DNA of 64,000 bases, from contig NC_086107.1 in the NCBI RefSeq assembly GCF_963921235.1, forward strand, positions 98,520,001 through 98,584,000, given 5' to 3'. Position numbers and translations under genes: made by a program. A model generated the notes under the pieces. It saw only the letters and a list, made by a program, of their open reading frames with translations, did not search any database and was not told the DNA's origin. The DNA comes from Mobula hypostoma. Lineage: Eukaryota. Each line of letters begins with the position of its first letter. The stretch's first letter is position 1. Below are positions 5,860-36,200 of this stretch, in pieces.

Positions 5860-6240
5860 CAGCGAGGACAGCTCGGCCCGCCTCCCTGACCCCGAATCCC
5901 GCCCGCAAACCCCGTGGTCCCCGAGCTCCGCACCCAGACACGCCGCTCGGAGCCCTGCCCCACTCCAGACCCCTCGGCCCAAACAACCGCCATCGCTCTT
6001 CTCGGATCCGTGGTCCCAGGCCACGCCCACTGGCCGGAAATTGTTTCCGTCGACGTATGACGGAGGACATACGTAATTCCGCTCAAATGGCGTCGCAGAG
6101 GAGACGGGGTCTTCAGAATGTGAGGAATTCGAGTGGATGGGAAACAGGGCAAGAGGCGTCGGCATGGCAGGGCATGCCAGGGGAGAGGGGAGGATGGAGG
6201 TGGGTGGGGAGAATCTGAGGGACAACGAGAGTAGCTGTTG
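5860..6240 (+). promoter_or_regulatory. CpG-island promoter of TAB1
   Basis: Local high CpG density around exon 1. Motifs: KLF/SP CCACGCCC (6021-6028), ETS-like CCGGAAAT (6034-6041) with inverted TTTCCG (6044-6049), and YY1-like AAATGGCG overlapping the start codon. Confidence 0.75.
6087..6119 (+). CDS. TAB1: TAB1 exon 1 (coding part) [11 protein letters not shown]
   Basis: ATG at 6087, donor GTGAGG at 6120; parallels human MAAQRRSLLQS. Missed by the ORF track. Confidence 0.9.
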
Positions 6241-12200: not shown

Positions 12201-15200
12201 GGAGAGTCAAGTGTATCTTCTGTGGAGTATAGGATGGTAAGAGGGAACATGATTGGTTTAAGGTGGCACTGGTGAAGCAGAGTGACGACTTGCTGGTAGC
12301 AAACACAACAATTAACTACCTCATTAACCACACTTCTTATTGGAAGCAATCACTACAATCAATAACCTGTAGCTTCCCTTCTGGTGTTGAGCTTTTGAAC
12401 CGCCTGAACAACCTGGCATTTTTGTGGTGTAAACTGGCGCCTTGAAGGTGCAGGATGGCTGTGGCATGGCAGGTACGGCTGAATCGAGCCAGCAGGGCGC
12501 AGGCCCGCGAGTGGGAACTGAGCACATGTTTGGCCATTGCTGGAGCGGATTTGGTGGTGAGTTGAAGCAGCGAGGCCCGGGCCCGAGATTGCAGGGCAAC
12601 CCATTGTTTGACGGATTTAAGCGCCAGGTCAGATTGGAAAGGCCGGGTACAGGCTGAGTTGAGCCAGCGGGGCACAGGCCTGAGAGTGTATCAAAGTGGG
12701 CCTGGTCAAAGTGCGAGGAACAACCTGCTACTTGGCCAGTTTAAGTGCTGAGTCAGATTGAAAAGGTCAGGTATAGATCATGTCGAGGCGGTGGGGCCCA
12801 GGCCCAAGACCACGTTGAAGTGGCAGGGCCTGCGTCTGAGAGCGGGCAGCGACTCGGTTTGACCAACTTTAGCACTAGGCCGGATTGAAAATATCAGGGT
12901 GGTAGGCCCGGAGGAGAGGGGTGGGCCAGTGCTCCACAAGGTTTACTTGTCCCTGCACTGAACGGAGACTATGTCCTGCAACTAAAGGGCTCCTGGATCG
13001 AATGCAGTTATGACTGGTTTTGTGGCTGTGGGCTCACTTTTGTGAACTTCAGTTCTGAATGTTATTAGCTTACTTTTATTGTTTGTGCAATATGTTTTTT
13101 CTGCACATTGGGTGTTCAACGGACTTTTTTTTAATGGGTTCTATTGGGTTTCTTTGTTTTGTGGCTGCCTGTAAGGAGACTAATCTCAAGGTTTTATATA
13201 GAATTTAGGTTTTATATAGTATACTAGAAAAAGTTTGTGAGAAGTTTAATAGAAAAACTTTGTAATTACCTGCTTTCTGCATTAATTATTCATAAAATGT
13301 GGCCTGATCTTCATCTAAGTCACAATAATAGACCAACACAATCTGCCTAAACTACTAACACAAACAATTAATTGTAGTTTTCATGTCTTTTTTAAACACA
13401 TTGTTTAATCATTCACAATTGGAATGAGGCTTTGGTGCTGGTGTGGAGTGCCCTTTTTCCTCCAAACATAGCACCTACAAAAAAGTTCAATTTTTGTCTC
13501 ATCTGTCCACAGAACATTGTCCCAGAAGCATTGTGGAACAACCAGGTGGTCTTTTGCAAACTTGAATTGCAACAATGTTCTTTTTTGGAGAACGGTGGGT
13601 TCCTCAGGAGCACCATTCTTGTTCAGTATTATCCTTATAGTGGACACATGGCAGAGACTTTAGCAAGTTCTAGTGATTTCTGCAGGTCTTTTGCTACTGC
13701 CCTTGGATTCTTTCTTACCTCCGTCAGCATTTCACATTGTGCTCTGGGTGTGATCTTTGCAGGACGCCCACTCTTAGGGAGAGTAGCAACAGCACTGAAT
13801 TTCCTCCATTTGGAGACAGTTTCTTTTACTGTAGACTGATGAACATTCAGGCCTTTAGAAATGCTTTTGTAGCCTTTAACAGCTCTATGCATCTCTACAA
13901 CTCTTCTTCTAAGGTCCTCTGAAAGTTGTTTTAATCGAGGTATGTTGCACATAAACAGATTTCTCTTGACAGGCTCTGACAGCAACCTGACTTTGTGTGT
14001 CTTTTTACAGGGCAGGGCACCTCTACAACCCATATCTCCAATCTCATCTCACTGGTTGGAACACTTGACTCCAAATAGCCTTTGTAGAAGACATTACCCC
14101 AGAGGTTCACATACTTTTTTGAACTTAGACTGTGATTGTTCAAAGGTGTACTCAGTATTGACAAGTACAATAGTTTGTGTGTTATTAGTTTAGGCAGATT
14201 GTGTTTGTCTATTATTGCAACTTAGCTGAAGATCAGACCACATTTGATTAACTAATGCAGCAAACCAGGTAATTGCAAAGGGTTCACAAACTTTTTTTGC
14301 AGCTGTACTTTGAATATAATGTACTCAGAACTTTTTTGTTTGTGATACATTGGGAAACCTCAGTGGGGCACTTGACTCTTAGCACAGATGACTCGAGTCT
14401 GCTTTCTCTCTCCTCCAGAGAAGATGAGTGCTTCCTTTATGGGGTCTTCAATGGATACGATGGGAGCCGAGTCTCAAAGTTTGTGACGCAGAGGCTGACA
14501 GCAGAGCTCTTGCTGGGGCAGCTGACCGAGAGTCACAATGACGCTAACGTACGCAAGGTGCTATTGCAGGTATTGTCGCCCAGATCTGAGTGTACTTCAC
14601 CGCATTGGGGCTTGCTGGAAGGTGCCAGACATTTGTGTTCACGTTACGTGGGGATAATGTCACAGAGGACTTCAGAAATATCCTGCTCAATGGGGAGACT
14701 AAAGATTTTGAAGAGCTTAGACTGATGAAGTAGGCACCCATGTGGCAAATGAAATTAAATGCTGAGACACATATGATGGTTCATTTGGGAAAAGCAGCAT
14801 TTTTAAAAGGTTGGAGGATCAGAGAAATATCAGTGAGCACATAAATTCTAGAGATTTTCAGGGCAAAATGAGACGTCTGTGGGATCCATTATTTTAAAGT
14901 AGAGGTATGAAGTACAAGCAGCATAGCTGTGCTGGACCTAAATAGGTCACTGATTAAGTCAACTTGATTTGGACATTACCCAGAAAGGATGTAAGTACCT
15001 TTGTTGAAGATGCAAAGGAAATCTCTGGCTATGGGTTACACTTCTATGGAAGCTGAGGGTCAGGGATTACTTAAAGCGAAGATGACGGACAGACAGCAAA
15101 TGTGGCTAGAGAGAGAGCTATCAACACAAGAAAATTTACTGCTGCTGGAAATCCAAAGCAACACACCCAAAGCGCTGGAGGAGCTCAGCAGGTCAGGCAG

Positions 15201-18200: not shown

Positions 18201-21200
18201 CAACCATGATATAACGTAATGGCAGCACAGATTTGAGGAGCTGAGTCGCTTCCTCCTCGTCCACCAGGGGACACTGGTTTGAGGTGATCGACTGAGGATA
18301 CTGTCACTCTGGCAACAAAGATTTGCATAGTGAGTTTGTATAAACTGGAATGGATATCCTGAGGTGACAGTGGATGCAGTCGCTCATTTTCTTATGGAAT
18401 AGGGGAAAGAACAACTGTTCTACATAAATATAGAACAGTACAGCACAAGAGCAAGCCCTTTAATTCACGCTGTCTGTGTCAAACGCCATGCAAATTTAAA
18501 CCGAATCTCTTCTGCCTGATCCATATCCTTCCATCCCCTATATAGTCATGTGTCTAACAGCATCTTGCTGTCACATCTGCTTCCACGTCCACCCCTGGCA
18601 GTGCGTTCCAGGCTCACTCAGTGCGTTTAAAAAAAAGCGTGCCCCACACATTTCTAGTATTGGGCATATCTAGCATGGGTAAAAGATTTTGATCATGTAC
18701 TCTATCTGTGCTGCTTAATAATTTTATTAACTTCTACCAGGTCTCCCCTTAGCTTTTCTTCACGCCAAAGAAAGCATCCCAAGTTTGTCCAGACTTGTAG
18801 CTCATACCTCTATCCAGACAGCAGCCTAGTAAACCACATCTATACTCTCCAAAGTCTACGCCTCCTTCCTGTAACAGGGGGTGGAGGAGGGAGTAGAATT
18901 ACACACACGTAGGCAGCTCTTTCGTAGAACCAGGATGAATGAGTTGAGATAGATAACCTGTTCCAGCAACATCATTGTGGCTGTTCGGAGCTAATATATC
19001 CAATTTCAACGAGTGCTCCCAGGAAATGCGGGCCACTTTTACTGATATTAACCCATCCATTGATGAATTGGGCTGTATTTGTGTGTGGTATTTTCAGCCG
19101 ATTGGCGAACAGTTCACTTGGTTTCGATCAGCTGGAGGGTGTGAGCAGATGGCTGCACACATTGAGGGCTTTGTTCTCTTTTTCTCCACAGGCCTTCGAT
19201 GTGGTAGAACGCAGCTTCTTCGAATCAATAGATGATTCTCTGGCGGAAAAGGCCAACCTGCAGTCTCAGCTTCCTGAGGTAACAACCCACACCTGTAATT
19301 AATTATCCATGTATTCTCTAACAACTTCTATACTGGTGAGTCTTACTGCAAGTCCGTGTACATCATGTTTGTGTTTGTAGTTGAACCAGCACATTATGTG
19401 GTAGGTTTCCAGTGCTTGGCATTGAGGTGCCTTCCTGGCAAGTCCAACTCTTCAATCCAATCCAATAACTTTTTTATGAGCTACTGAGAGAGACCTAGAC
19501 TGTCATTGATTTTGTCTTTTGGAAGTAAAAGTGAGATCCTGTCTGCTTTCTCAAGTGGACAGTTGAGGTGAGGAGGGGGTGGACCTTTGGCACAGATGGA
19601 GGTGATGCAGTGGAACTGTCCAGGTATCCTGGAGATATGGATTTCTCCACCAGCATAGCTGGCGAGCAGATTATCTGCTTCTTGTTAGTGAGATCTTGCT
19701 GTGTATGAAAGGCTGCTGTGTTCCTTATAGAGGATTAGGAAGTGTTTCACTAGGGCAGTAAGTGACGTCCTGAGGCTGTGAAAGGAATTATTGATGCATT
19801 TCCTCATAGGAGAAGCACTGAACGGAGGACTTCCGGTAGCGCTCATGGAGTGAAGTCGCGTTCTTGACTCGCTCCATTACCTCTGAGTTTTTTTTCTCTA
19901 TGGTCAGCTATACTTTAATTAACCATTAAGGCATCAATTCTTACAATACTTTGAATTAAACTGAATTCTCCGACAATTGGATGGAACTTAGATCTGCTAT
20001 GTCTAAGAACGGGAAAAACGGCAAGGATGGTAAACCTCCGGTTAAACCGAAAGCTACGGATTTCCCCCCGACTGAATCACCGGTGACTTTGAAAGCGATA
20101 TCGGAGTTAATTCAGAGGGAAATTTCAACCTCTGTTAGGGAGATGATTCGTACGGAAATTGCAGGCTCTGTTAAAGACCTGATTCATACGGAAATCTCAA
20201 CTAATTTCCAGAAAATTGCCGATTCAATTGATAAGATGCAAACATGTATTGCGGAACATCAGTCGGCTATATCTGATCTTCAAAAATTCGTGCAACAAAG
20301 TGAGCTTAGGATGGGGAAAATCGAAGAAACAATTAATGTAATGAAGAAGAAACTTGACTTTTTGACTTTTAAAAACTCTGACTTGGAATCTAGAATGCGA
20401 CGGCAGAATTTACGAATGATCGGGGTGAGGGAAGCTGTGGAATCCAACAACCCCATGAAATATTTTTCTCAACTTTTAAAAGATGCATTCCCTACTGTAT
20501 TTCCTGACCAACCACCGCTTCTGGATCGTGTTCACAGAATCCCATCATACTCGTCTAGGTCAGATAGACCTAGGCATGTTATTTTACGTTTTCATTATTT
20601 TCAAGACAAGGAGAGACTGTTTCGATTCGCTCGATCTAAAGGTTTCATTGATTTTTCGGATCTTAAGTTCCGATTCGTGGAAGATTTCAGTAAACCAATC
20701 TGGGACCAACGGGTTCGTTACAGATCCGTGATGTCGGAATTCTATAAGATGGATTTAAGACCAGCGCTGCTGTACCCTGCACGTCTAAGGATTCGCATGT
20801 CAGATGGAGCCCTTCGTGTTTTTGATTCTCCATCGGATGCCCAGAGTTATCTGGATCAACTTTCATCTTCAACATCTTAATTGCCTTTTTTTAATTATCT
20901 CCGTTGATCGGAGGCTGTGAATTGGTTGGTTTTAACTTTTTCGTGCCCTATCTGGGCAGAAAAGTTTACTTTTGATTTCTTAATATGGTTGCTAAACTTT
21001 CTTTTTAACTGCGTCATTTCTTTCTTTTCCCAGGGGATTCTGGGTGGTTACTTCCCTTTTGTCATCTTACGTATTTCCTGTGTGGCCTTAAATTTTGTAG
21101 TTTTTTTAAATTTTATTCTGTTTTGCTTTTTATAACCACTTTATGTCAATAATCTTATTTTTTCTTGTTGCTGTGTCTATTCATGGGTTTGAGGTTTATT

Positions 21201-24200
21201 GTGGTTTTTTTTTAATATATATTTTCCGGCTTTTGTTCTGTTCTGTGTGTATTTTAATTGAGCTACCTTTTTTTTTACTTTTTTACTGTTTTACAATTAG
21301 CTGATCCTTTTCATATTTATACCTTTTTTTTTAGGGAGCGTATACCGGAAGTCATGGGGGTAGTTTTAGCGCTTGCTTCTTTCTGGCGGGTCTGCTTTAG
21401 ATTTTGCCTTGGGGTCTTGGGGTGGGGGGTGGTGGGAGGGGCTTCACGTTTTAGTTTGTTTCTCTTTGGGCTATATACATTATTGAAGTACTGGTTGCGT
21501 CCTTTTTCCCGTATCTTTTGTATGTTCTGTTTCCTCTCCGGGTTTGTGGGTCGCGCCTATCGTCAATCCTCCTTGTTGTGGGTTGACTTTAGGATTTATG
21601 GAGTCTATTATTAATTTTGTCTCCTGGAATACTAATGGTCTTAATCATCCTATTAAAAGGAAAAAAGTTTTTAAAGTGTTCCCGAGACTTAAAGCACAAA
21701 TTTTATTTTTACAAGAGACCCATGTACGGAGGGGGGACAGACTACGTTTTTTCAAATTCTGGAAGGGACAACAATTTCATTCGAACTCCAATGCTAAGAT
21801 TCGAGGCGTCTCTATTTTTATAGATTCCTCAGTTACTTTTATACAACAGGATATTATCTCTGATCCGAATGGTAGATTTTTATTGGTTAGTGGTTTACTA
21901 TTTAATAAAAAAGTAGTTTTGGTTAATGTTTATGCTCCTAATATGGATTGTCCGGAATTTTATAAATCATTGTTTGATCAGTTTCCGAATTTGAACGAGT
22001 TTTCATTGATCTGGGGCGGAGATCTTAATACCTGTTTGTCTCCAGCTTTGGACCGTTCGGCTCCTTTACGGACTTTACCTAATAAATCTGCAAATCTGAT
22101 TAATTTTTTCCTTTCTGATTCTGGGTCGACGGACATTTGGCGTTTTCTGCATCCTCAGGAAAAAGATTTTTCCTTCTTTTCACATGTTCATCATTCCTAT
22201 TCAAGAATTGATTATTTTTTCATTGATTCTCGTCTTATTCCTTCAGTGATTAAATGTGATTATGATTCTATAACCATTTCGGATCATGCTCCACTTAAGC
22301 TTTCTATTAAAATTATGGCCAATATACCAAATAATAGACAATGGCGTTTTAATTCGCTGTTGCTTCAGGACTCGGACTTTGTTAATTTTATGAATGAACA
22401 GATTGAGCTTTTTTTTACAATTAACCATACAGAAGATATTTCGGTTAACACTCTTTGGGACACTTTTAAAGCCTATATTTGGGGTCAGATTATTTCGTAT
22501 TCTGTTGCTTTGAGGAAGAAACAGAAGCAGGAGGAGATGGCAATTGTGGACAAGATTAAAGAAATTGATAAGAAATATGTTATGGCTCCTTCTGAGGAGT
22601 TATACAAACAAAGAACTGAACTTCAAATGGAACACAGTTTACTACTCTCGTCCTCGATTGTAAACCAATTAAAGAAAACAAGAAGTGACTTTTATGTTCA
22701 CAGTGACAAAATTGGCAAGCTGCTGGCTAATCAATTGAAATCTAATTATGTTAAATCTCAAATCAATCAGATTTATAACCAAAATGATCGATTGATACTG
22801 GATCATGTGGGGATTAATCAAACCTTTTGTGATTTTTATTCTTCTTTATATCAGTCAGAGTCTCCTCGAGATTCTAAATATATGAATGATTTTTTAGATA
22901 AGTTAGACTTCCCTCAGATTTCAAAGGATATGTCTTCTTTATTAGATACTTCCATTACAATGGATGAGATTAAGAATGTTATTTTTTCTATGAATCTGGG
23001 GAAAGCTCCTGGCCCTGATGGGTTTACCGTTGAATTTTATAAATGTTTTGCTTCTTTATTGATTCCTTGGCTCGGTAGGGTTTTTGAGGCTTCTTTGAAA
23101 CTTGGTAAACTTCCTGAATCTTTTAATAGAGCATCAATTTCTCTAATACTAAAGATGGATAAAGACCCTGCTCAATGTGCATCTTATAGACCAATATCTT
23201 TATTAAATGTTGATTCTAAAGTTTTTTTCTAAGTTATTAGCAAATAGACTAGAAAAAGTACTTCCTTCTATTATTTCGGAAGACCAAACGGGTTTTATTA
23301 AAGGTCGTTACTCTTTTTATAATATTCGTACATTGTTAAATATCGTTTATACTCCCTCACAAAATGTTCCTGAGTGTGTTATTTCTTTAGATGCCGAGAA
23401 AGCTTTTGATAGAGTAGAATGGCCTTATTTATTTAAGGTGCTTGAACTGTTCAATTTTAGCTTGAAATTTATATCCTGGATTAAACTGTTATATCACTCC
23501 CCTGTAGCCTCGGTTCGTACTAACTCTTTAAACTCACCTTTTTTTCCTCTCTTTCGTGGTACTCGACAAGGCTGTCCTCTTAGTCCCCTATTATTTGATA
23601 TTGCATTAGAACCTCTTGCAATTGCTATTCGAGAATCTTCAAATATTACTGGGATAACTCGGGGATTAAAGTCCCATAAATTATCACTCTATGCTGATGA
23701 TTTACTTTTATATATTTCTAATCCTGAGAGATCCATTCCTGCTGTTTTAGAGTTATTAGCACAATTTGGTCTTTTCTCAGGTTATAAATTAAATCTTAGT
23801 AAGAGTGAACTTTTTCCGATTAATAAACATCTTCCCTTATATTATAAATTTCCATTTAAATTGATTAATAATTACTTTTCATATCTTGGGATTAAAATTA
23901 CTTGTAAATACAAAGATTTATTTAAGACTAACTTTTTACCATTAATAGACCATATTACTCAACTTTCATCTAAATGGTTTCCCTTATATTTAACTTTGAT
24001 TGGTTGTATTAATGCGGTTAAGATGTTTTTTTTTGCCAAAATTTTTATATGTGTTTCAGGCATTACCAATTTTCGTTCCAAAATCTTTTTTTGATAAAGT
24101 TGACTCAATATTTTCTTCATTTATTTGGCAGAATAAGAATCCGAGACTGGGTAAAATACATTTACAGAAAGCTAAGAGAGATGGAGGTTTAGCATTACCT

Positions 24201-27200
24201 AACTTTAGATTCTATTATTGGGCTATTAATATTCGACATATGAAATTTTGGTTACTTGACCAGGACATACTATCTATTCCTAAATGGGTAGCATTGGAAT
24301 TACAATCTGTTCAGGGTTATACATTTGGTTCTATTTTAGGCTCCTCTCTCCCTTTTGATTCGAAACGTCTTAAGCAGGTCTCTAACCCGATAGTTAAATA
24401 TGCTTTGCGCATTTGGTTTCAATTCAGAAAATTTTTTGATCTTAATCAATTCGGGTTAGCGATTCCTATTTTAGGTAACATATTTTTTCCTCCCTCTTTT
24501 ACGGATCGCGCTTTTCAAACTTGGAAGACTAAGGGTATTTTACGGTTTTTGGATTTATTTTTAGATGGTTCCCTTATGTCTTTTGAACAATTATCTAATA
24601 AATATAACTTATCAAGAATACATTTTTTTAGATATTTACAAGTTAGAAATTTCCTAAGTACTATACTTTCTTCCTTTCCAATGCTTCCTCCTACATATAT
24701 TTTAGATTCGATAATTAACCTTAATCCATGTCAGAAAGGTGCATCGGCTATGATTTATAATATTATTATGAAACTTAGGAAAGCTCCATTTGATAAGATT
24801 AGGGTAGATTGGGAACAGGAATTGGGGCTTACCATTTCTGTGGATGATTGGGGGCAGATTTTACAATTAGTTAATACTTCCTCTATTTGTGCTAAACATT
24901 CCCTAATTCAATTTAAAGTGGTTCATAGAGCACATATGTCCAAAGATAAGTTAGCACGTTTTTACTCGCATATTAATCCTTTCTGTGATAGATGTTCGGG
25001 GCAGATAGCCTCTTTAACTCATATGTTTTGGTCTTGCCCTACTTTGGAAACTTTTTGGAGAGATATTTTCAATATTATTTCTAAGGTATTAAATATAGAT
25101 ATCTCTCCTCACCCTATTACTGCTATCTTTGGACTACCTAAAATTTCTAGTAATCTTTCCCCTTCAGCCCGTAGAATGATTGCATTTCTTACTTTAATGG
25201 CGAAAAGATGTATTTTACAACATTGGAAAGAGCTTAATGCTCCAACTACCTTTTTTTGGTTTTCTCAGACGATTTTATGTTTGAATTTGGAGAAAATTAG
25301 AAGTAACCTTTATGATTCTTCATTTAAATTTGAACAGATTTGGGGACCTTTTATTCGATATTTTCATTTAATGTAATATTTACCCTTCTTGTTTTTTTTC
25401 ACTGTTTTTAATGGAGGTCGGGATTGAGGACGTGATTTTAAGTTTAACTCTGTTTGGTTTCAAGTTAGCCCATTGCTTTGCCTTGCTTTTAGTTAGCCGC
25501 ACGGTGGGTTTTTTTTTGGGGGGTTTTTTTTTTCTTTTTTTTCCATTGATATATATAAAATTTAGTATACTATTATGTTATCTTGGTTTCTTATGTTTAA
25601 ATTACATTGTTTGTAGTATTTTCTTTTTGGTATTGATATCTTTTGGAATTTTATTATACTTTAACATTGTATTAATGTTTATATGGCTTACCTTTTTTGT
25701 ATACTTACTCAATAAAAAGATTTAAAAAGAAAAGAAAAGGAGAAGCACTGAACAAAATGGGCTGAGTTGACTCACTGCTTGACAGAAATAGCAGCCCTTG
25801 GGTATAGATTTCCCTTGTGTCGAATCAAGTGTAGGCTTTCACGGCGGGAGGGATCAGACTAATTTGCCTGTGTGCTTAGAGCATTTCTTTGTGTGGACTG
25901 GGGACTGCTGAAAGATCTGTGTGACTGAAAGAGAGAGAGAAAAAACTGTGAGAGAGTTTGCTACAGAGCTTTTCCCATGGAATTACATGCATTTTTCATT
26001 ATTTTCCTGCACTAACACCAACTGTCCAGATGACCAGGTGAGACCACCAAGACATTCCCATCCTCCAAACTTCTGTCCTTCTGTCTTCTTGCTTCATCTA
26101 CAGTCAGGCATTTAATAAAAAAGGGTGTATGGGGTGTCAGGGAGGGGTAGCACCTCTGGTGGGGGAACATGTCGCGTCCTTTTCAGGGTGGTTAGTCCAC
26201 CTTCGGTCCCCACCTGGCACTCAGCTCTCACCTGTGGCTCCCCGTAGCTGTTTGCATGCGACAGCGGCCACACCCCGGGCAACGGCTTCGACAAGCCGGC
26301 TAAACCAGGTGAGGGTAGCCGACGGGTCTCAAACCCTCAGTGAGATAGGGAGTTGTCTATCCCAGCATGTGAAGACAGACTCCGGGGGATTGAGCGGACG
26401 AGACCGATGGAAGGTCCAACGGTCAAGAAGGCGGTCTCTGCAAGCGTTGTGGAACATGTAGAGCACGACAAGACACAGAAGACGTCCTGGTCATCCACTG
26501 CGCCTAGTCCCATCTCCAGCCGTCTGGACTCTGTCTTGCCACTGGACCCAGATGGGAATTGAGAAGAGAAAGTGAGGCTGACGCTGCGCAACTCTCCCTC
26601 ACTTAAATCCAAATCAAGCGCTAGTCTTCACACCATCATTATGGTGTTGAGGTCCTCTTCGACGTCAACGATGGACGAACCAAAAAAAAAGGTTATCTCT
26701 AGCAAGGAATATATTTGGTTCACTCATGCCCCATATGAGCCACCACTTACAAACTCACTTTAGTACATTCAGAATATATTTGTATCCCTTTCTCGCTAAT
26801 GCAATTATATAGATTTTCCCTAAATGCACCGAATCCATATGCCTTGAGACCTACATTAAAGGCTGGATAATCTTGAGTTGTTTTTCTCTGGGATGGTGGA
26901 GGCAGATGAGAGATCTGATAGTTTTATAAGATTGAGAGGCGTAGGTAGAATAGACGGGGAGTATCTGTTTCCCAAGGTTGAATTGTCTCAAACCAGCGGG
27001 CGTGCATTGAAGGTGAGAGGAGGTAAGTTCAGGGGGAATGTGAGGTAAGTTTTTTACTCAGTCATGGATGCCTGGAATGTGCTGCCTGGTCTGATGGTAG
27101 AGGCAAATATATTAGAGGTTTTTAAGAGACATTTGAATAGACGCATAGATGTGAGGAAGATGGAGAGATATGGACATTGTGTAGGTGGAAAGGATTAGTG

Positions 27201-30200
27201 CTTGGGTGCTTTTTAATCTTTTTAGCTGGTTCAGCACAACATTGTGGGCCAAATGGCCTGCTCCTGTGCTGTACTTCTTTCTGATTTACATATGTAGAGT
27301 AACAGAGATTCTTTTAAATCTTGCATTTATTAGCTACTGCCGTATTTTGTTCCCACAGATTTTGGTTCATCACAAGTGAAACGCTCTTGTGATCCCGAAC
27401 ATCTTTATTGTCCCCTCTCAGCTTTCTTGTAGGAAAGAAAAGCAATAGTGTGATGCTGCCGGGTTATAGGCTGGTGTGGTGAGGGTGAGGATCTCATTTG
27501 TCACTCCCCTACTGATGTTAAGTTATTCAGCAGAGTCTTTGACATTTCCAAACTAATAATTCTAGATAGTGATGCTATATTTGGGACTTGACAATTAATG
27601 TGCTTAGTTCTAATAAAATTGTTTGCATTTCTGGCGACATTTTGACAACAGGCCCATTAGGTTTAACCAGTCTGTGTTAGTGATTGTGGAAGCACATCTA
27701 CACCTATCACTGGACATCCATCCATATTCACCCCTTCTCTTCTGTGCCTTGGTGATCCAAGTGCTCGTCTAGATGCTTGAATGTGGTCAGTGGCTCTCCC
27801 TGGCAATACAATCCAGGTACACACCCTGCCTTGGGTGGAACAAGGTTCCCCCTCAGATTCTCTCTGAACCTCTTCCCCCTCATCTGTGTTCTGCAGTTTT
27901 ATTTGCCTCTTATAAGGGGATAAGGATTCCTGCAGCTGGTCAAACCTGCTCTGCTACCATCAACTCCCCTTCATCCTGCTTCAGCAAAATGCTGGCTGTG
28001 TCGCAAACCTTCAACTCAATCCTCTCCCTGTTGCCTCACTCCTTCGACATTGCCCCTTTTTTTTTTCGTAATTTATTTTTTTATTGAATTTCATCATCAA
28101 ACAAACATTTCGATAAGATGTATTTCAGATACTGTACATTATATTATAGGCATCCGTTAGTCTCATGAGACCATGGATTTGTGCCTTGGAAGGTTTCCAG
28201 GGTGCAGGCCTGGGCAAGGTTGTATGGAAGACCGGCAGTTGCCCATGCTGCAAGTCTCCCCTCTCCACGCCACCGATGTTGTCCAAGGGAAGGGCATTAG
28301 GACCCATACAGCTTGGCACCGGTGTCGTCGCAGAGCAACGTGTGATTAAGTGCTTTGCTCAAGGACACAACACGCTGCCTCAGCCAAGGCTCAAACTAGT
28401 GACCTTCAAATCACTAGACGAACGCCTTAACCACTTGGCCACGTGCCAACACATTACTGTACATATATTTCATATAATCATATTTGTCACAAATCTCCAC
28501 ATAATATTTATCTGAGGTATACACTTATAGAAAGGAGAGGAAAGAAAGAACAACTGAAAGAAGAAAACTATACCATTGCTCCTTCTAATCTGTGTTTTGT
28601 GCTTGTCTCGCAGGGTATTCCTCACTCCCAGCTTCCACAACAGTACCAGAAGCTCCTGGAAAAACTCAATAAAATCGAGCAGGAGATTTCAGGAGGAACG
28701 ACTGCCATTGTTGCACTTATTCTCAACAGCAAACTCTACATCGCCAACATAGGTACTTCGCTGTGCTGTAGAATGGCTGTTGTACAGGCCCTCAGATACC
28801 TGCCTGTTGGTCCAACATCCTATCGGTTTATTCTAGTTTTAAACACAATCTCACTTTCCTGGAGTAATGATAAGGCAGCAGACAAGCATTGTCGTCTTTA
28901 GCCTGCAGATGTGGTCTTGACTAAAATGGGGTTTCAGCCAGGCTTGTTTGGCATCTCTAGATGAACCTGTGTTGAGCTTCAAGTATTTGTTTTGGCTTTG
29001 AGTACAACTGACATTTGTTGATGCTGCATTATGTTCACTAAGCCATTCTCCCCTGCCTTCCTCAAACACCAATGCACCCCTAGTGATGAGTTCTGCCCTG
29101 CTTCTCTCCATTGAGCTTGTTCCTTCTTTCCTCTAACCTCTTCTCCACCCATCTGCCAAACTGACTCAGATCTAGCCATAAGCGAAGCGAGGTTCAACAT
29201 TTTAACTGGGCTCTTGTTCCTGTTGGCAGGCACTAGCCGAGCCTTGCTGTGCAAATCCACTGCAGATGGACAGCTCCAGGTGACTCAAGTCAGCGTTGAT
29301 CACACGACAGACAACGAGGACGAGCTCTTCCGGCTGTCACAGCTCGGTGAGTGACCTTGACACAGAAGACGTTTCCAATCATGGCATCTGGAGAATGTCC
29401 AGATCTCAGATCTGTGCCACAAACAAGAGAAAATCTGCAGATGCTGGAGTTCCTCCAGCATCTTGTGTGTATTTCTCTAATTAATGCACTGGTTTGAAAT
29501 GGAGAGCTAGAGGTATGGGCACTCCCCAGACCTAACTCAGAGTCTCCTTTGTATCCCTAAATTTAGTTCCTGCAATAATTTAATGGCGGAATTCTTCTGA
29601 ATATGCAGTGTCTGGAACCCTCACACCTCTCCATTCTCTTTGCATTCTATTGAATCCAGGCTTGTTAAAGCCATGGTTGGAAACAAAACTGGCTGTATGC
29701 AGGCTTCCTGCACTGCTAGTTTTCCCCATATGAAGTTTCACAGCTCGCAGCTGTGTTACTGACTTTCCTGTCTGAACGCTGTGTAACCGTTAACAGTTTA
29801 ATGACTCTGAGAGGGAGGGGGAGATCTGACAACATCAGTCACTTAATATGGAAAGGGCAAGGAGGGGGTGGTGAAATTCACTGATCACACCCTCCAGATA
29901 TAACTTGCGAGGGTCGGAGTGGGGCAGATCTGATTGTGGTTGTTGTTTTAAAAAAACAGAATCCAATGCCAAATGTCGTGGTAGGTTTAAACTCTTCTGT
30001 GTACATCAGAAGATGTCAATGAAGGAATGAATTTCTTCTGTTAAGGAATGTTACCTCAGTGGAGCCTTTCTATCCTAACCATCCATAATGAAATCGACTT
30101 CTTTAGAGTTGCACACTCATTCACTGGGCCATGATACGTGTTAGTGTAAAGAAAAGGAAAGGTACATCACATCCAGAGTTTCTCCGGTTAGTAGACGATT

Positions 30201-33200
30201 TCCCTCCACGCCTCTCTGACGTAGTGCGAATTCGCATACGAGGCAAGTTACAGCAGTGGTTTGCCATTGCCTTCTGCTGGGTGAGTTTCCAAAGAGATCA
30301 CCTGCTCGTTAGCTGGCACGGATGGAAAGCGCGCAGGGGAGCTGGCTGGATTCGAACCCGGGACCTTTCGTCCTGAAGTCCGATGCTGAAGCCACTACGC
30401 CACCAGCCGGGTCCGACACTAAAGAAGCAATTCTAATTACCAGAAATGAAGCTCTTATCGCCAGTATCTTATCCCAAGACAGGTTTGGGCAGGTACAGAA
30501 TAGAGTCACAGACACTACAGCACATAACAGGCCCTTCAGCCCATCTAGTCCATGCTGGTTATTCTGCCTAGTCTCATTGACCTGCATCTGGACCAGAGCC
30601 CTTCATTCCCCTGCCATCCATGTATTTCCCCTTTTCTCCTGTTACCAGTAGGAGGTACAGAAGCCTGAAGCCACACACTCAGCAATTCGGGACCAGCTTC
30701 TTCCCCTCTGCCATCCGATTCCTAAATGGACATTGAACCCTTGGATACTACCTCACTTTTGTAAAATATATAGTATTTCTGTTTTTTGCATGATTTTTAA
30801 TCTATTCAATATACGTATACCGAATAAGATTTACTTTATTATTATTATTTTTTCTTGTATATCATGTATTGTATTGAACTGCTGCTAAGTTAACAAATTT
30901 CTGATTCTCTTAAACATTGAAGTCGAAGCCACATCCATTTCTGCTGCCATGAGAAAACTTGAGTAGGCATGAAATTCATATCCTGTGCACTTAGCAAACT
31001 TAAACAGCGTAGTCAGCAAAACGGTACCCTGACCTGCTAAAACATAAAGCTTCAAATGAACAACTTAAATCAGGTACCCATTAATTCACAAGCATCTACA
31101 AGCAGGGGAAAAAGCCTTTAAATGTTAATTGCTTTTAAATGCAAATTTGTCTTCCATTATACATCAATATTTAAAACAGGGGTCAGTTTTCTCAAGTCAG
31201 ATGCAGATGAATGCTCAATCATTTATCCTGCTGCTGGTTGGCATGTGGCCCCCATCTCGGTGCCAGGCACTCCCAGTCAGTGCGTGGACCCCGCTCCAGT
31301 GCCGGACACTCACGTTTAATTTTTCATGCTGTCTCTAGGTCTGGATGCTGCAAAAATTAAGCAATGTGGGTTGATTGGAGGCCAGGACAGCAGCCGCAGG
31401 ATTGGAGATTATCGCATGAAGTACTGCTACAGTGATGTGGAAATGCTGAGGTAAGGATGACATGTTCCACCAGCTGCGTAACGTCCCTTTGCACCTGCAT
31501 GCTTGCTTTCGTTGACCTGCACACAAGGATATCCCAGTCTTGGTGCACATCCCCCCACTTTCCCTAATCGCTTACCGTTCGTGTTATCATCTGCATTCCT
31601 GTTATTGCCGCCACAGTGGATAAGCTCCAGCCTTTGCACATTACTTTATTGTCGCCAGACAATTTATACTAGAGCGTACAATCATCACAGCGATATTTGA
31701 TTCTGCGCTTCCCGCTCCCTGGAGTACAAATTAAGAATAAATAGTAAAAATTTAAATTATAAATCATAAATAGAAAATAGAAAAGGGAAAGTAAGGTAGT
31801 GCAAAAAAAAACGGAGAGGCAGGTCCTGATATTTGGAGGGTATGGCCCAGATCCAGGTCAGGATCTGTTCAGCAGTCTTATCACAGTTGGAAAGAAGCTG
31901 TTCCCAAATCTGGCCGTATGAGTCTTCAAGCTCCTGAGCCTTCTCCCGGAGGGAAGAGGGACAAAAAGTGTGTTGGCTGGGTGGGTCGTGTCCTTGATTA
32001 TCCTGGCAGCACTGCTCCGACAGCGTTCGGTGTAAAGTGAGCCCAAGGACGGAAGATTGGTTTGTGCGATGTGCTGGGCTGTGTTCACAATCTTCTGCAG
32101 CTTCTTCTAGTCTTGGACAGGACAACTTCTATACCAGGTTGTGATGCACCCTAGAAGAATGCTTTCTACGGTGCATCTATAAAAATTAGTGAAGGTTTTA
32201 GGGGACAGGCCAAATTTCTTTAGTTTTCTCATGAAGTAAAGGCGCTGGTGGGCTTCTTGGCAGTGGACTCTGCTTGGTTGGACCAAATCAGGTCATTTGT
32301 GATATTGACCCCGAGGAACTTAAAGCTTTTGACCTATTCCACTTGCACCCCACCGATGTAAATGGGGTCGTGCAATCTGCTACTCCTTCTGAAGTCAACA
32401 ACCAATTCCTTCATCTTGCTGACGTTGAGGGATAGGTTATTGTCTTCGCACCATGCCACCAGGTTCTTAATTTTCTCTCTGTACTCAAACTCATCATTAC
32501 CGGAGATACAGCCTACAATTATGCAAGATTCGAACAGAAGAGGAGCGTCTTGCTCCCTCCGGATGGCATCAAGATTCATCGTCACCGAGGAGGACGTTAG
32601 AAGGGCCTTCCTGAAGATAAATCCAAGGAAGGCGACGGGCCCAGATGGCTTCCCAGGACGGGCTCTCCGGTCCTGTGCAAGCGAGCTAGCTGGAGTGTTT
32701 GCTGACATCTTCAACTGCTCCTTGCTTCAATTTAAGATCCCCCCCGTGTTTTAAGAAGGCAACAATAATCCCAGTGCCAAAGAAGAGCAAGGTGACATGC
32801 CTGAATGACTATCGACCTGTGGCTCTGACATCAATTGCTATGAAGTGCTTCGAGCGATTGGTTATGGCACACATCAACCACAGCCTACCGGTCAACCTCA
32901 ACACTTTGCAATTCGCCTACCGGAGCAACAGGTCAACGGCAGATGCCATCTCTCTGGCCGTACATTCCTCCTTAGAACACCTGGAGAATAAAAACACATA
33001 TGTAAGGCCCTTTTTCATTGACTACAGCTCTGCCTTTAATACCATCATTCCAAATAAACTGATTCCTAAGCTCCAGAACCTGGGCCTTAGCACTCAGATC
33101 TGCAGCTGGATCTTCAACTTCCTCACAGACAGGACCCAGGCTGTAAAAATAGGGGGCAAGCTCTCCTCTACAATCACTCTGAGCAGAAGGCTGTGTACTC

Positions 33201-36200
33201 AGCCCCCTGCTGCACTCACTGTACACCCATGATTGTGTCGCCAAGTTTCCATCAAACTCAACATATAAGTTTGCTGATGACATTATATTGTCGTAGCCAT
33301 GCACTTATTCACCCAGACAACCTGCCTGAATCGCACTGCAGCCTCTGTGTGTGTCATCCTCACAGCTCACATACCCGCCCCATTTTGTGTTGTCCATAAA
33401 TCATTAATAAATACACACAAACAGAGGATTACGTTCCTTGGATCTCGATTATCCAGGATATATAGCCACAATATTTGCATCCATCAAAAAAATAAGTTAG
33501 AGTGATTTGTTTAATTAATTGATCTGGATGACAAATTGATAATTGCATAATTGATATACAAGACAAGCTTTTCACTGTATCTTGGTGCATGTGACAATAA
33601 TAAACCAATGCCAATAGAAAATAACCTTTTAAGTTATTCATTTACTTATCCCCACCCATGTCAATTCAATTGAGGTGACTTGGTTCCATACCTCAAATTT
33701 TTGGGACTGTTCCTTTGAATTCTGTTGGGGTGAATTTCTGATGCCTGAACGGATGTAAAGCTCGGGTTGCCTGTATATCTGTGTGAATAGTACCCACTGG
33801 TCACAGCTTGCCACTCAGGAAACGGGTGTAGGATTTGCAAATAAAATGATGCAAGGTGTTTTATGTTGAAGAAAAACCGAAACAACTCCTTTATTGTAAT
33901 CCAGAAACTGGTATCTGAACTTCACGTAATTACGTCATAAGTCAGACCAGCCTCTGAAAGTGGAACCCCAACTCAATGTCAGTGGTTGTAAATTATGTAC
34001 ATTTCCACCAATTACATTACCCTACAGGGCACCTTTATTTGTTTCGCGTCTGCTAACACATACTCTATATACACCGATACTGCTCTCAGTTACATGTGAT
34101 TTAATTTAGCCCCGAGTAAGAGTGGTAACATCTAAGGGGAGAATAAAAATGAGTTTAAATCAAGATGTAACTGGGTGGTTGATGGCCAGCACAGACTTAG
34201 TGGGCCAACGAACCTGTTTCTCTGCTATACCTCTCTAACTCTGACCCGACCGTGACCCCTGGTGTCCAGGCACTGACCCGATGGTGACCCCTGGTGTCCG
34301 GGTGCTGACCCGGCTGTGACCCCTGGTGTCCAGGCACTGACCCGGCCGTGACCTCTGGTGTTGATCTGCCTGTTTGTGTCTTTTTTCCTACGGGGAGGAG
34401 GGATTTGGGGGTTAATGTGCTTGTTCCATTTCTTTGTGGGGAGGGTGTATTTGAGGGATTGCTGATCGTACTGCCTTTCTTTTCTTTCTTGGTTACATGG
34501 CTACCCAGAGAAGAAAAATTTCAGAGTTATATAATTTGATGATAAATGAGCTTTGGACCTTTGAAACTTTGTCCGGGGCACTGACCCAGTTGTGGCCTGT
34601 GCTGACCAGAGCACTGACCCAGCTGTCTGCTTGCATTTGCCTCATGCTGGCATTGATGATATACCTTGACAATAATTGGATTTTTCACCTTGGTTAGTCC
34701 TGCCAAGACGAAGCCGGTGATCGCAGAGCCAGAAATCCACGGAGGTCAGTCACTGGATGGGGTGACAGGGTTTTTGGTGCTGATGACCGATGGACTGTAC
34801 AAAGCCCTGGAGGCAGCTCATGGTCCTGGACAGGCCAATCAGGTGAGGCGTGCTCTCTCTCAGAGCACCGTGTGCTTCAGCTGCCCTGGGTACTGAGGTG
34901 CTGATGTAGTCCAAGCCCTGAGTCTGAGGAGTTTGAGTGGAAGTCATGGGTGCTGCTGGCTGGGACACTATGGGTGCCCTTGACCTGGGGTGTATGGGCT
35001 GGGCCCAGCATCTCTCCAATGAGTGCCGTTGGGCTGGGTTGTGTTTGGGGTTCGGGTTGGTATGCGCTATGGGTCTGAATGTATGCTGCAGATCGGTCTG
35101 CTCTGGCGTGTGTGCACTTTGTAGAAGTGGGGGCTCCATGCATGGTTTCCATCTGTATTGGGTTGAGCTTCAAGCTAGCAACTTGGCCTCAAAAAATAAC
35201 AGAGAAAAATGCTAAAAGAAACGGTAAGGCTGCCCCACAATGCGCTACAAGGTGTGGAAAGGAACAACAAGTAGAAGGAGTGGGTGTGTGTTTGGTCCAG
35301 TGCATGGTGCAGTGTGAAAGTTCGAGTGTTGCAGCTGAGTACGTGTTCAGTAGGCTGTGCTCTGGAGTGGCTGCAGTGTGTGATCAGGGTCAGTGGATGC
35401 GTGTCTGGTTCAGTAAGTGCGCTGTGTGAGGGAGCCAGTGTTGGGGTTTGCTACTTGTTCAGAGAAGTGTGCTCTGGGGTGGTATAGTTTTGAGGGAGAA
35501 CAGCTGGAGTGTGCTCTGAACTGAGGTACGAGCTTAGCGGTGGCTGTTGGACTGTGTTCCCGAGCGTTGCCAGAACCCGTTCAGACTCCGGGGGAGAGCG
35601 CGGGTTCTGCTTGTCACTGCCTGACTCCCATCACCTCCCCTTGCAGGAAATCGCTGCCATGGTGGCTACGGAGTTTGCACTGCAGACGAGGCTGGATGCT
35701 GTGGCCCAGGCAGTGGTTGACCGCGTCCGAAGGATACATCGCGACACCTTCATCAGTGGAGGCGAAAGGTCAAAGTTTTGTGACAGACACGAGGACATGA
35801 CCCTCCTCATTCGAAACTTCAACTACCCTCTGGGGGAGATGAGCCAAACGTCCACAAGCCCGACCCAAGGTAAATGAGACCACCATGTGTTGTTTGGGTA
35901 TTGTCTGCATCGTCACAGCCGATCACTGAGCCAACTCCTGGCATTTGGCCCGGCTGAGTTCTTGGTGCTTGTGGTTTAGCTCTGTTGCTTTGGACATCAG
36001 GTGAAGTTGAAGGACTGGCACTTTGACCGTTGTAGTGTAGCTTCGATGATGTCACGTGTGGCCAAACTTTGCCTGTTTCTTACACTGTTGGTTGCATGGC
36101 CTCAACCAGCACAGAAACCAAAGGGTTAACTGTTGCGGCAGATGGCACACTAACCACACAAGTTCTGAAGGAAGGATGACATCTAAAAGCAAAAGCACCT

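What the first reader, a model, noticed from the sequence alone, without database searches (positions are those of the whole stretch)
26131..26315. Complete HDV-like ribozyme in sense orientation inside TAB1 intron 4
Seen in sequence: every element of the HDV fold is present in the correct order. These are P1 (7 bp), a long J1/2, P2 (10 bp with one G-U), P3 (3 bp), L3 UCCCCGU (HDV has UCCUCGC), the P1 3' strand followed by GGGCAAC as in HDV, a perfect 6-bp P4, and J4/2 GCUAA placing the catalytic C at 26300. Established: HDV-like ribozymes head R2, RTE and other non-LTR retrotransposons, and the mammalian CPEB3 intron carries one. Inference: because it lies on the TAB1 coding strand, it could cut TAB1 pre-mRNA before G26131. 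That would release the retroposon RNA and compete with exon 4-5 splicing, a CPEB3-like situation in a signalling gene.
Basis: partly seen in the sequence, partly recalled or inferred. Interest (0 to 1): 0.9.

Follow-up and report, generated by a model that had tools for sequence, protein, structure and literature searches.

The report
HDV-like ribozyme heading abundant retroposon
The flagged stretch is the head of one copy of a very abundant short retroposon, and that head looks like a real HDV-type self-cutting RNA of an unusual build, but it most likely cuts at the element's first base (about 26122/26123) rather than at 26131 and is not a TAB1-specific device.

Summary
A relaxed HDV descriptor, written after seeing the candidate, hits once in the window and in 5 of 290 window shuffles. 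Rfam gives only a 13-bit partial hit.

The stretch is the 5' head of a roughly 558-nt, A-tailed, high-copy retroposon (26123-26680). Hundreds of contigs with different flanks in three related organisms start at 26123.

Two distant copies (72-76% identity) show three things:
- The element begins with a tandem (G)GGGUGU-AU-GGGGUGU. The first copy is the likelier P1.
- P3 is better read as GGC/GCC directly before P1'. L3 (UCCNNGNA) then carries an extra hairpin.
- P4 has two compensatory pairs.

Core positions are invariant at 38 of 44 columns, against 44 of 105 in the periphery. P1, P2 and P3 never vary, so the pseudoknot itself is not proven, and no cleavage data exist.

Best reading (about 0.6): a new architectural variant of the known retrotransposon-head HDV-like ribozymes. 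It frees the element's 5' end from read-through transcripts. Any cutting of TAB1 pre-mRNA is a by-product.

The parts
26122..26128 (+). P1 5' strand, first copy ((G)GGGUGU; this copy has A at 26122). It is the family's 5' terminus. The predicted cleavage site is 5' of 26122/26123.
   Evidence: Loose ends 'before 26123' occur in 180, 133 and 181 contigs with unlike flanks. L041 and L086 both start GGGGTGTAT at the point where similarity begins. It is complementary to 26270-26276.
26131..26222 (+). J1/2 peripheral hairpin domain.
   Evidence: RNAalifold on alignment A1 finds pairs with both sides changed at alignment columns 26-114, 27-113, 30-109, 32-107, 45-98 and 47-96. The domain folds at -39.5 kcal/mol.
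26225..26234 (+). P2 5' strand, CUCUCACCUG.
   Evidence: It forms 10 bp with 26306-26315. One C-to-U change in L041 keeps the pair as a G.U.
26236..26238 (+). P3 5' strand, GGC. U26239 can add a U.G pair with G26266.
   Evidence: It pairs with GCC at 26267-26269, directly before P1'. It is invariant in 3 of 3 sequences, and RNAalifold predicts it.
26239..26246 (+). L3 strand, UCCCCGUA. C26240 and C26241 pair with G26278 and G26277 to form P1.1. U26239 and G26244 sit at the positions of the conserved L3 U and G.
   Evidence: The three sequences read UCCCCGUA, UCCAAGUA and UCCACGAA, so U, C, C, G and A are invariant and the other positions vary. The conserved L3 G and U are described in PMC3774820.
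26247..26265 (+). Extra hairpin inserted between L3 and the P3 3' strand (GCUGU/ACAGC, loop 26252-26260).
   Evidence: The stem is kept in 3 of 3 sequences, with one C-to-U change giving U.G. The top pair is absent on both sides in L041 and L086. The loop differs in sequence and length.
26266..26269 (+). G followed by the P3 3' strand, GCC.
   Evidence: Invariant at 4 of 4 columns.
26270..26276 (+). P1 3' strand (P1'), ACACCCC.
   Evidence: Invariant at 7 of 7 columns. It directly follows P3.
26277..26282 (+). GG of P1.1 plus the joiner GCAA.
   Evidence: GG is invariant in 3 of 3 sequences, and the joiner reads GCAA, CAAA and UAAA. A subfamily consensus has A at 26277.
26283..26298 (+). P4 hairpin, CGGCUU-CGAC-AAGCCG.
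   Evidence: Two pairs change on both sides: G-C to C-G, and U-A to C-G or U.G. The same changes appear in a subfamily consensus of 107 and 89 contigs.
26299..26305 (+). J4/2, GCUAAAC. C26300 sits at the position of the catalytic cytosine.
   Evidence: Read from the sequence. It aligns to GGCUAA of RF02682. Its conservation in L041 and L086 follows from the search pattern used. The subfamily consensus also keeps GGGCTAAACC.
26306..26315 (+). P2 3' strand, CAGGUGAGGG.
   Evidence: It was part of the search pattern, so its conservation in the two loci is not independent evidence.
26316..26690 (+). Body of the retroposon (to 26680) and its A-tail (26681-26690).
   Evidence: There is a GC-rich island in an AT-rich intron. 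Summed word depth rises 10^4 to 10^5-fold between 26123 and 26680. Loose ends 'behind 26680' are A-rich. Homology to L041 runs to the tail point.
19189..19293 (+). TAB1 coding segment upstream of the intron (aa 107-141 of relative P0069).
   Evidence: tblastn.
28611..28772 (+). TAB1 coding segment downstream of the intron (aa 136-191).
   Evidence: tblastn, a PP2C Pfam hit and a PDB TAB1 match at E = 3.6e-16.

Best explanation
Positions 26122-26315 are the 5' head of one copy of a high-copy, roughly 558-nt, A-tailed, SINE-like retroposon without a pol III head. The head folds as an HDV-like nested double pseudoknot.

Proposed fold:
- P1 is the first (G)GGGUGU at the very start of the element, paired with ACACCCC.
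- A two-base linker follows.
- A 92-nt J1/2 hairpin comes next. Its base uses the tandem second GGGGUGU.
- P2 has 10 bp.
- P3 is GGC/GCC, directly before P1'.
- L3 is UCCNNGNA. Its CC pairs with the GG after P1' to form P1.1, and it carries an extra hairpin before the P3 3' strand.
- P4 is a 6-bp hairpin.
- J4/2 is GCUAAAC, with C26300 in the place of the general acid.

Inferred mechanism: master copies have no promoter of their own and are transcribed by read-through. The ribozyme cuts at the element's first nucleotide and sets its 5' end. The A-tailed RNA is then copied back into the genome in trans by a LINE such as the L1 lying next to it.

In this copy the first G is A or missing, which leaves a 6-bp P1. 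If it still cuts, the site is 5' of 26122/26123. Cutting TAB1 pre-mRNA would be a side effect.

Shown: the sequence elements, the family boundaries, the conservation pattern, and covariation in P4 and J1/2. Inferred: the pseudoknot pairings, catalysis, and the way the element is transcribed and mobilised.
For: 1. All helices are present. In A1, 99% of pair cells are standard pairs, against 35-50% when the partners are slid by 1-3 columns.
2. The family 5' end coincides with the P1 start. Loose ends at 26123 occur in 180, 133 and 181 contigs with unlike flanks, and the last loose letter is G. L041 and L086 begin GGGGTGTAT exactly where similarity to the window begins. Cleavage at the element's 5' end is the rule for R4, Dong, baggins and L1Tc (PMC3774820, passage).
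3. In copies only 72-76% identical overall, core columns outside the search pattern are invariant at 38 of 44. Peripheral columns are invariant at 44 of 105 (Fisher p = 5.5e-7).
4. L3 keeps U, CC and G while the positions between them vary. That G and U are the conserved L3 pair of HDV-like ribozymes.
5. P4 has 2 pairs changed on both sides, and the same P4 variant appears in a subfamily consensus from the runs. The J1/2 hairpin has 6 such pairs.
6. RNAalifold independently predicts P2, P3 (GGC(U)/(G)GCC), the inserted hairpin and P4. It leaves the first GGGGUGU and most of ACACCCC free.
7. The descriptor hits once in the window, in 5 of 290 window shuffles and in 2 of 20,000 local shuffles.
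8. Helix energies favour first-copy P1 plus an intact J1/2 domain (-9.3 and -39.5 kcal/mol) over second-copy P1 plus the opened domain (-11.8 and -29.7).
9. A 6-7 bp P1, a P2 of at least 5 bp and a variable P4 are within the R2 ribozyme range (section 16 of PMC3774820).
10. There is no tRNA, 7SL or 5S head. A T4 run lies at 26180-26183.
11. A nearly full-length L1 lies in the same intron.
Against: - No Rfam HDV-type model reaches its threshold in the window, L041 or L086. The best hit is 13.2 bits against a gathering score of 44.
- P1, P2 (apart from one wobble change), P3 and P1.1 never vary in the three sequences. The pseudoknot pairings therefore rest on complementarity and conservation, not covariation.
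- The shuffle control is not significant (113 of 500 shuffles reach the observed values).
- Only three sequences were available. Two of them were found through the 17-mer covering J4/2 and the P2 3' strand, so conservation there is by design.
- A hairpin inside L3 was not found in what I read (search, papers). It makes the fold non-canonical.
- The base pair of P1 is G-C. In HDV itself it is G.U (recalled, not checked in a call).
- J4/2 is two bases longer than in HDV (recalled).
- A subfamily consensus has A in place of G26277, which would break one of the two P1.1 pairs.
- The descriptor was written after seeing the candidate.
- The MFE z-score is ordinary.
- There are no RNA-end or cleavage data.
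Confidence: 0.6

Rival explanations
1. The ribozyme uses the second GGGGUGU (26131-26137) as P1 and cuts 5' of G26131. P3 is GCU/AGC and a 20-21-nt J3/1 follows.
For: In this copy the second repeat gives the only perfect 7-bp P1 (-11.8 against -9.3 kcal/mol). The descriptor, which demands 7 bp starting with G, picks it.
Against: Family copies extend 8-9 nt upstream of 26131, so 26131 is not the end of the retroposed RNA. The second repeat is the base of a covarying hairpin. The summed helix energy favours the other conformer by about 7 kcal/mol. P1' would not follow P3 directly.
Confidence: 0.1
2. Look-alike. The conserved 5' head is some other functional RNA or DNA element of the retroposon, such as an internal promoter, a protein-binding site or a translation structure, made of ordinary hairpins. 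The HDV resemblance is then coincidental and nothing is cleaved.
For: There is no significant Rfam match. Covariation is seen only in plain hairpins (P4 and J1/2), not in the pseudoknot helices. L3/P3 is non-canonical. The scan covers very many windows, and the descriptor is expected to hit about 0.02 times per window by chance. In L041 the head sits before a protein-coding ORF, so a leader or translation role is conceivable.
Against: This reading does not explain several things. The element's first 7 nt are exactly complementary to the 7 nt that follow P3. L3 keeps U-CC-G with variable letters between. GG follows P1'. A GCUAA joiner follows P4 and is followed by a 10-bp partner of the strand before P3. 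All of these are invariant in copies that are 72-76% identical overall.
Confidence: 0.22
3. A CPEB3-like host function. This copy has been kept because its cutting of TAB1 pre-mRNA tunes exon joining.
For: It lies in sense orientation in a TAB1 intron. Contigs of a second organism (X2) run from the near-identical flanks into the element. They carry only 26 and 22 letters inside it, which is under the tool's 31-letter rule.
Against: It is one of a very large number of copies (11,189-13,055 contig pieces laid per run). It differs from the family majority at many body positions. It lacks the first G of P1. No conservation beyond close relatives was shown.
Confidence: 0.04

Closest known systems
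HDV-like ribozymes at the 5' ends of non-LTR retrotransposons (R2, R4, Dong, baggins, RTE, L1Tc) and their non-autonomous derivatives (NARTc, R2 SIDEs)
   Same: There is a double-pseudoknot head of about 190 nt with a large J1/2 insert (R2: the first ~184 nt; PMC6765202 passage). P1 starts at the element's first nucleotide. The element has no evident promoter and sits in introns. A non-autonomous short form carries the ribozyme (abstract starts of PMC3414825 and PMC3383444, seen in the listing).
   Different: Here no reverse transcriptase is linked to the head. The tail is a plain A-run, which fits L1-type trans mobilisation. A hairpin is inserted in L3. The P1 5' strand is tandemly duplicated. 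The host is a jawed vertebrate with a very high copy number. In the distant copy L041 the head precedes a USP/UCH-domain ORF rather than a retrotransposon ORF.
CPEB3 ribozyme (mammalian intronic HDV-like ribozyme)
   Same: It is intronic, lies on the sense strand and has an HDV-like fold.
   Different: CPEB3 is a single-copy sequence conserved across mammals (PMC13635239 introduction). It is compact, with no J1/2 domain. The present sequence is a repeat copy.
Rfam RF02682, the HDV ribozyme from F. prausnitzii
   Same: The 3' half aligns: GGCAAC, P4 and GGCUAA.
   Different: The score is 13.2 bits against a gathering score of 44. The 5' half is not matched.

Membership tests
HDV-like self-cleaving ribozymes | Five helices in nested double-pseudoknot order: P1, P2, P3, P1.1, P4 (PMC13635239). 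| tested here: met
   All are present by complementarity in 3 of 3 sequences. The pseudoknot pairings are not supported by covariation.
HDV-like self-cleaving ribozymes | The roughly 7-nt P1' lies immediately downstream of L3/P3 (PMC3774820). | tested here: met
This is met with P3 read as GGC 26236-38 / GCC 26267-69.
HDV-like self-cleaving ribozymes | A cytosine in J4/2 at the catalytic position. | tested here: met
   C26300 lies in GCUAA. A subfamily consensus keeps it. Its presence in L041 and L086 follows from the search design.
HDV-like self-cleaving ribozymes | L3 with a conserved U and G and two bases that pair with the bases after P1' (P1.1). | tested here: met
   U26239, C26240, C26241 and G26244 are invariant, as are G26277 and G26278, in 3 of 3 sequences. 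One subfamily consensus has A at 26277.
HDV-like self-cleaving ribozymes | L3 is a short closed loop on P3. | tested here: not met
   Either a 19-nt hairpin sits inside the loop, or there is a 20-nt J3/1. I found no precedent (search; papers read in part).
HDV-like self-cleaving ribozymes | A score at or above the curated threshold of an Rfam HDV-type model. | tested here: not met
   The best score is 13.2 bits against 44.
HDV-like self-cleaving ribozymes | Mg2+-dependent self-cleavage 5' of P1 that leaves a 5'-OH. | not testable with these tools
   Reads were laid on DNA contigs. No RNA ends were seen.
Retrotransposon-head ribozymes | [quoted passage not shown] | tested here: met
   The family starts at the first base of the first P1 copy.
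Pol III SINE | A head derived from tRNA, 7SL or 5S with an internal promoter. | tested here: not met
   There are no tRNA or Rfam hits. A T4 run lies at 26180-83.
L1-mobilised retroposon | An A-tail, target-site duplication, and L1 in the genome. | tested here: inconclusive
   The A-tail is at 26681-90 and an L1 lies at 19960-25745. The duplication cannot be told apart from the A-runs on both sides.

The most novel reading that the evidence does not exclude
This would be a new architectural class of HDV-like ribozyme, with two unusual features. A helix is inserted into L3 between P1.1 and the P3 3' strand. The P1 strand is tandemly duplicated, so that its second copy can either close the J1/2 domain or compete for P1'. 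This ribozyme would drive a very high-copy retroposon in a jawed vertebrate. The retroposon would have arisen from the leader of an intronless USP17/36/42-like gene. Thousands of intronic sense copies could then cut host pre-mRNAs.
Probability: 0.3. Interest if true: 0.75.

Novelty: new variant of a known kind. Interest (0 to 1): 0.6.

Why it matters
HDV-like ribozymes at retrotransposon heads are established, but mostly in invertebrates, trypanosomes and rDNA-specific R2. If this family cleaves, three things would follow.
- It would add a high-copy, A-tailed, apparently L1-dependent vertebrate family.
- It would show that L3 tolerates an inserted helix. Current descriptors and Rfam models do not allow this, and all of them missed the sequence.
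- It would provide many natural intronic sense copies for asking whether such ribozymes interfere with splicing.

It would also explain how a promoter-less short retroposon gets a defined 5' end.

Tried and rejected
- Whole genome: none is held for this window.
- Search of the records behind L041 and L086: not held.
- Second copy in the window: none (BLAST).
- Collection scans: two patterns from the P2/P3 region found nothing in metagenome, genome or viral contigs. The 17-mer found 120 loci in metagenome contigs, of which 2 are true relatives. It found 120 loci in genome contigs, with 0 true relatives. It found 0 in viral contigs.
- Raw-read run X21: 0 reads laid, so it is no test.
- Earlier findings of this scan: nothing.
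- Rfam on L041 and L086: only miRNA-like hits on an unrelated inverted repeat.
- A tRNA-like or pol III head: rejected.
- A protein-coding meaning of the element: the ORFs are short and have no family.
- The apparent duplication AAAAAAGGGTGTAT / AAAAAAGGTTAT that would fit a start at 26131: rejected, because GGGTGTAT is shared by other copies.
- Host lineage: named TAB1 proteins reach at most 86% identity in one exon, spread across shark, birds, a marsupial and a turtle. The lineage is left unresolved.
- Literature: searches found no description of this family or of an L3 insertion. Subscription papers and preprint supplements were not visible.
Full report
**The observation**

- GGGGUGU at 26131-26137 is complementary to ACACCCC at 26270-26276.
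- GGGCAAC follows.
- CGGCUU/AAGCCG forms a 6-bp hairpin at 26283-26298.
- GCUAA at 26299-26303 puts a C at 26300.
- CUCUCACCUG at 26225-26234 pairs with CAGGUGAGGG at 26306-26315, with one G.U.

The weak point is P3. In HDV-like ribozymes P1' lies immediately downstream of L3/P3 (PMC3774820, passage seen).

Rfam does not recognise the stretch.
- Nothing reaches gathering score in the window.
- Nothing HDV-like appears at E up to 10 in 24000-29000.
- In a 261-nt search there is only a 13.2-bit partial match to RF02682 (gathering 44, E = 4.3). It covers GGGCAAC, P4 and GGCUAA.
- The MFE fold is not unusually stable (z = -0.72).

I wrote a relaxed descriptor after seeing the candidate. It requires:
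- a 7-bp P1 starting with G;
- J1/2 up to 120 nt;
- P2 of at least 6 bp;
- a 3-bp Watson-Crick P3 directly before P1';
- L3 of 6-30 nt with CC at positions 2-3;
- GG after P1';
- P4 of at least 5 bp;
- a C-N-A-A joiner.

It hits one place on both strands of the window. It hits 0 of 40 and 5 of 250 dinucleotide shuffles of the window, and 2 of 20,000 shuffles of the 216-nt stretch. That is better than chance for one window. It is not enough on its own for a scan of very many windows.

**Context**

TAB1 is confirmed on the + strand.
- Three ORF fragments hit PP2C.
- Two of them match solved human TAB1 structures (E = 3.6e-16 and 5.3e-24).
- A 508-aa relative (P0069) maps in ten segments from 9041 to 57205.

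The finding lies between the segments at 19189-19293 and 28611-28772. These are the third and fourth mapped, so the intron is number 3 or 4.

The same intron holds a nearly full-length L1 on the + strand. It has an ORF1 RBD-like domain at 19960-20877, an endonuclease at 21487-23229, a reverse transcriptase at 23207-24091 and zf-RVT at 24000-25373.

The finding sits in a GC-rich island (0.55-0.59) within an intron of about 0.30-0.36 GC. The island ends in an A-run at 26681-26690.

**It is a repeat, and where the repeat starts**

I laid Logan contigs of three organisms on 25900-26900. This gave 11,189-13,055 laid pieces per run. The summed word depth between about 26123 and 26680 is 10^4 to 10^5 times that of the flanks. 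The tool warns that this is not a copy number.

The flanks of run X1 are identical to the window. The flanks of X2 differ by a few letters.

The best-supported loose ends lie 'before 26123': 180, 133 and 181 contigs, with median loose length 255 and agreement 0.38-0.39, which means different flanks. Others lie 'behind 26680' and are A-rich. The last loose letter before 26123 is G in all three runs.

There is no second copy in the window. No whole genome is held.

**Distant copies**

A 17-mer from J4/2 plus the P2 3' strand found 120 loci in metagenome contigs. BLAST shows that two of them are true relatives, both from one assembly.
- L041 covers element positions 1-504 at 72% identity.
- L086 covers positions 94-379 at 76% by BLAST. 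Reading it directly shows the 5' end as well.

Both begin GGGGTGTATGGGGTGT exactly where similarity to the window starts, and their upstream flanks are unrelated. The element therefore starts with a tandem repeat of the P1 5' strand, and the first copy sits at the terminus. In the window the first G is an A (26122) or was lost.

**Structure from the three-sequence alignment A1**

RNAalifold cannot draw pseudoknots. It predicts the following.
- A long hairpin whose base pairs the second GGGUGU (26132-37) with GCACUC (26217-22). Above the base, six pairs are changed on both sides.
- P2.
- P3 as GGC(U)/(G)GCC, directly before ACACCCC.
- A hairpin, GCUGU/ACAGC (26247-51 with 26261-65), between L3 and the P3 3' strand.
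- P4.

The first GGGGUGU and most of ACACCCC remain free and are complementary to each other.

I then counted my full pseudoknotted structure.
- 99% of 97 cells are standard pairs, against 35-50% when partners are slid by 1-3 columns.
- Two pairs, both in P4, change on both sides (G-C to C-G; U-A to C-G or U.G).
- P2 and the inserted hairpin each have one change to a wobble pair.
- P1, P3 and P1.1 never vary.
- With three sequences the shuffle control is not significant (113 of 500).

L3 reads UCCCCGUA, UCCAAGUA and UCCACGAA. The U, the CC and the G are fixed and the letters between them vary. That G and U are the conserved L3 pair of HDV-like ribozymes.

Outside the ascertained 17-mer, core columns are invariant at 38 of 44. 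Peripheral columns are invariant at 44 of 105 (Fisher p = 5.5e-7; the classes were defined after the fact).

A subfamily consensus from the runs (107 and 89 contigs, agreement 0.68-0.72) carries the same P4 variant and keeps GGGCTAAACC. It has A at 26277, which would cost one P1.1 pair.

**Which P1**

In the window copy, first-copy P1 (6 bp, -9.3 kcal/mol) plus the intact J1/2 domain (-39.5) beats second-copy P1 (7 bp, -11.8) plus the opened domain (-29.7) by about 7 kcal/mol. This uses nearest-neighbour helix sums only. A 6-7 bp P1 is normal for R2 ribozymes. Together with the family boundary, this puts the likely cut 5' of 26122/26123.

**What kind of element**

There is no tRNA, 7SL or 5S head. 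A T4 run at 26180-83 argues against a pol III SINE. The element has an A-tail, and L1 is present. Target-site duplication cannot be read because of A-runs on both sides.

In L041 the homology continues past the window's tail point into an ORF. The window element ends 36 nt after the position of L041's ATG. That ORF is a UCH/USP-domain protein (Pfam E = 3e-7; 336-aa P0001). Its closest named relatives are bird USP36/42-like proteins at 46-48% identity and mammalian USP17-like proteins at 36-38%. Whether that is the source gene or a neighbour is open.

**Comparison with what is known**

HDV-like ribozymes head R2, R4, Dong, baggins, RTE and L1Tc, and some non-autonomous elements. They free the element from co-transcripts and may aid translation (PMC6765202 passages; PMC3774820). 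The present case works like these.

It differs in four ways: the inserted L3 hairpin, the tandem P1 strand, the A-tail, and the vertebrate high-copy setting. It fails the curated Rfam thresholds.

The CPEB3 analogy fits only the intronic sense position.

**Verdict**

Most likely (about 0.6) this is a genuine HDV-like ribozyme family of a new architectural variant. There is no evidence of a TAB1-specific role. The main rival (about 0.2) is a coincidental look-alike within a conserved structured leader.

Noticed in passing
window 6348-8902: A pure C/T (polypyrimidine) tract of about 2.5 kb with unit CCCCTC. GC skew is -1.0, and all three + frames are open from 6219 to 9023. It ends about 140 nt upstream of the first mapped TAB1 coding segment at 9041-9178.
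   Followed up: partly
window 19960-25745: A nearly full-length L1 on the + strand in the same TAB1 intron. ORF1 and ORF2 domains are present, ORF2 is split over three frames, and an AATAAA and an A-rich tail lie near 25711-25745.
   Followed up: partly
window 32690-33229: A second reverse-transcriptase (RVT_1) fragment on the + strand, in a later TAB1 intron.
   Followed up: no
L041 1210-1617 and beyond (protein P0001): The distant copy of the element runs straight into a 336-aa UCH/USP-domain ORF related to USP36/42/17-like proteins. The window's element stops with its A-tail 36 nt into the corresponding ORF.
   Followed up: partly
L041 457-594: A long, nearly perfect inverted repeat lies about 35 nt upstream of the element's start. 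It drew many sub-threshold miRNA-precursor hits.
   Followed up: no
window 26626-26651: If the family-majority letters reported at 26628, 26629, 26640 and 26648 are read in, the two arms here become an 11-bp perfect inverted repeat about 30 nt before the A-tail. This could be a 3' recognition hairpin of the family.
   Followed up: no
window 26198 and 26218 (loose ends): At least one subfamily in organisms A-C has a different sequence in the apical part of the J1/2 domain (133-190 contigs, agreement 0.71-0.74). This fits a variable peripheral domain.
   Followed up: no
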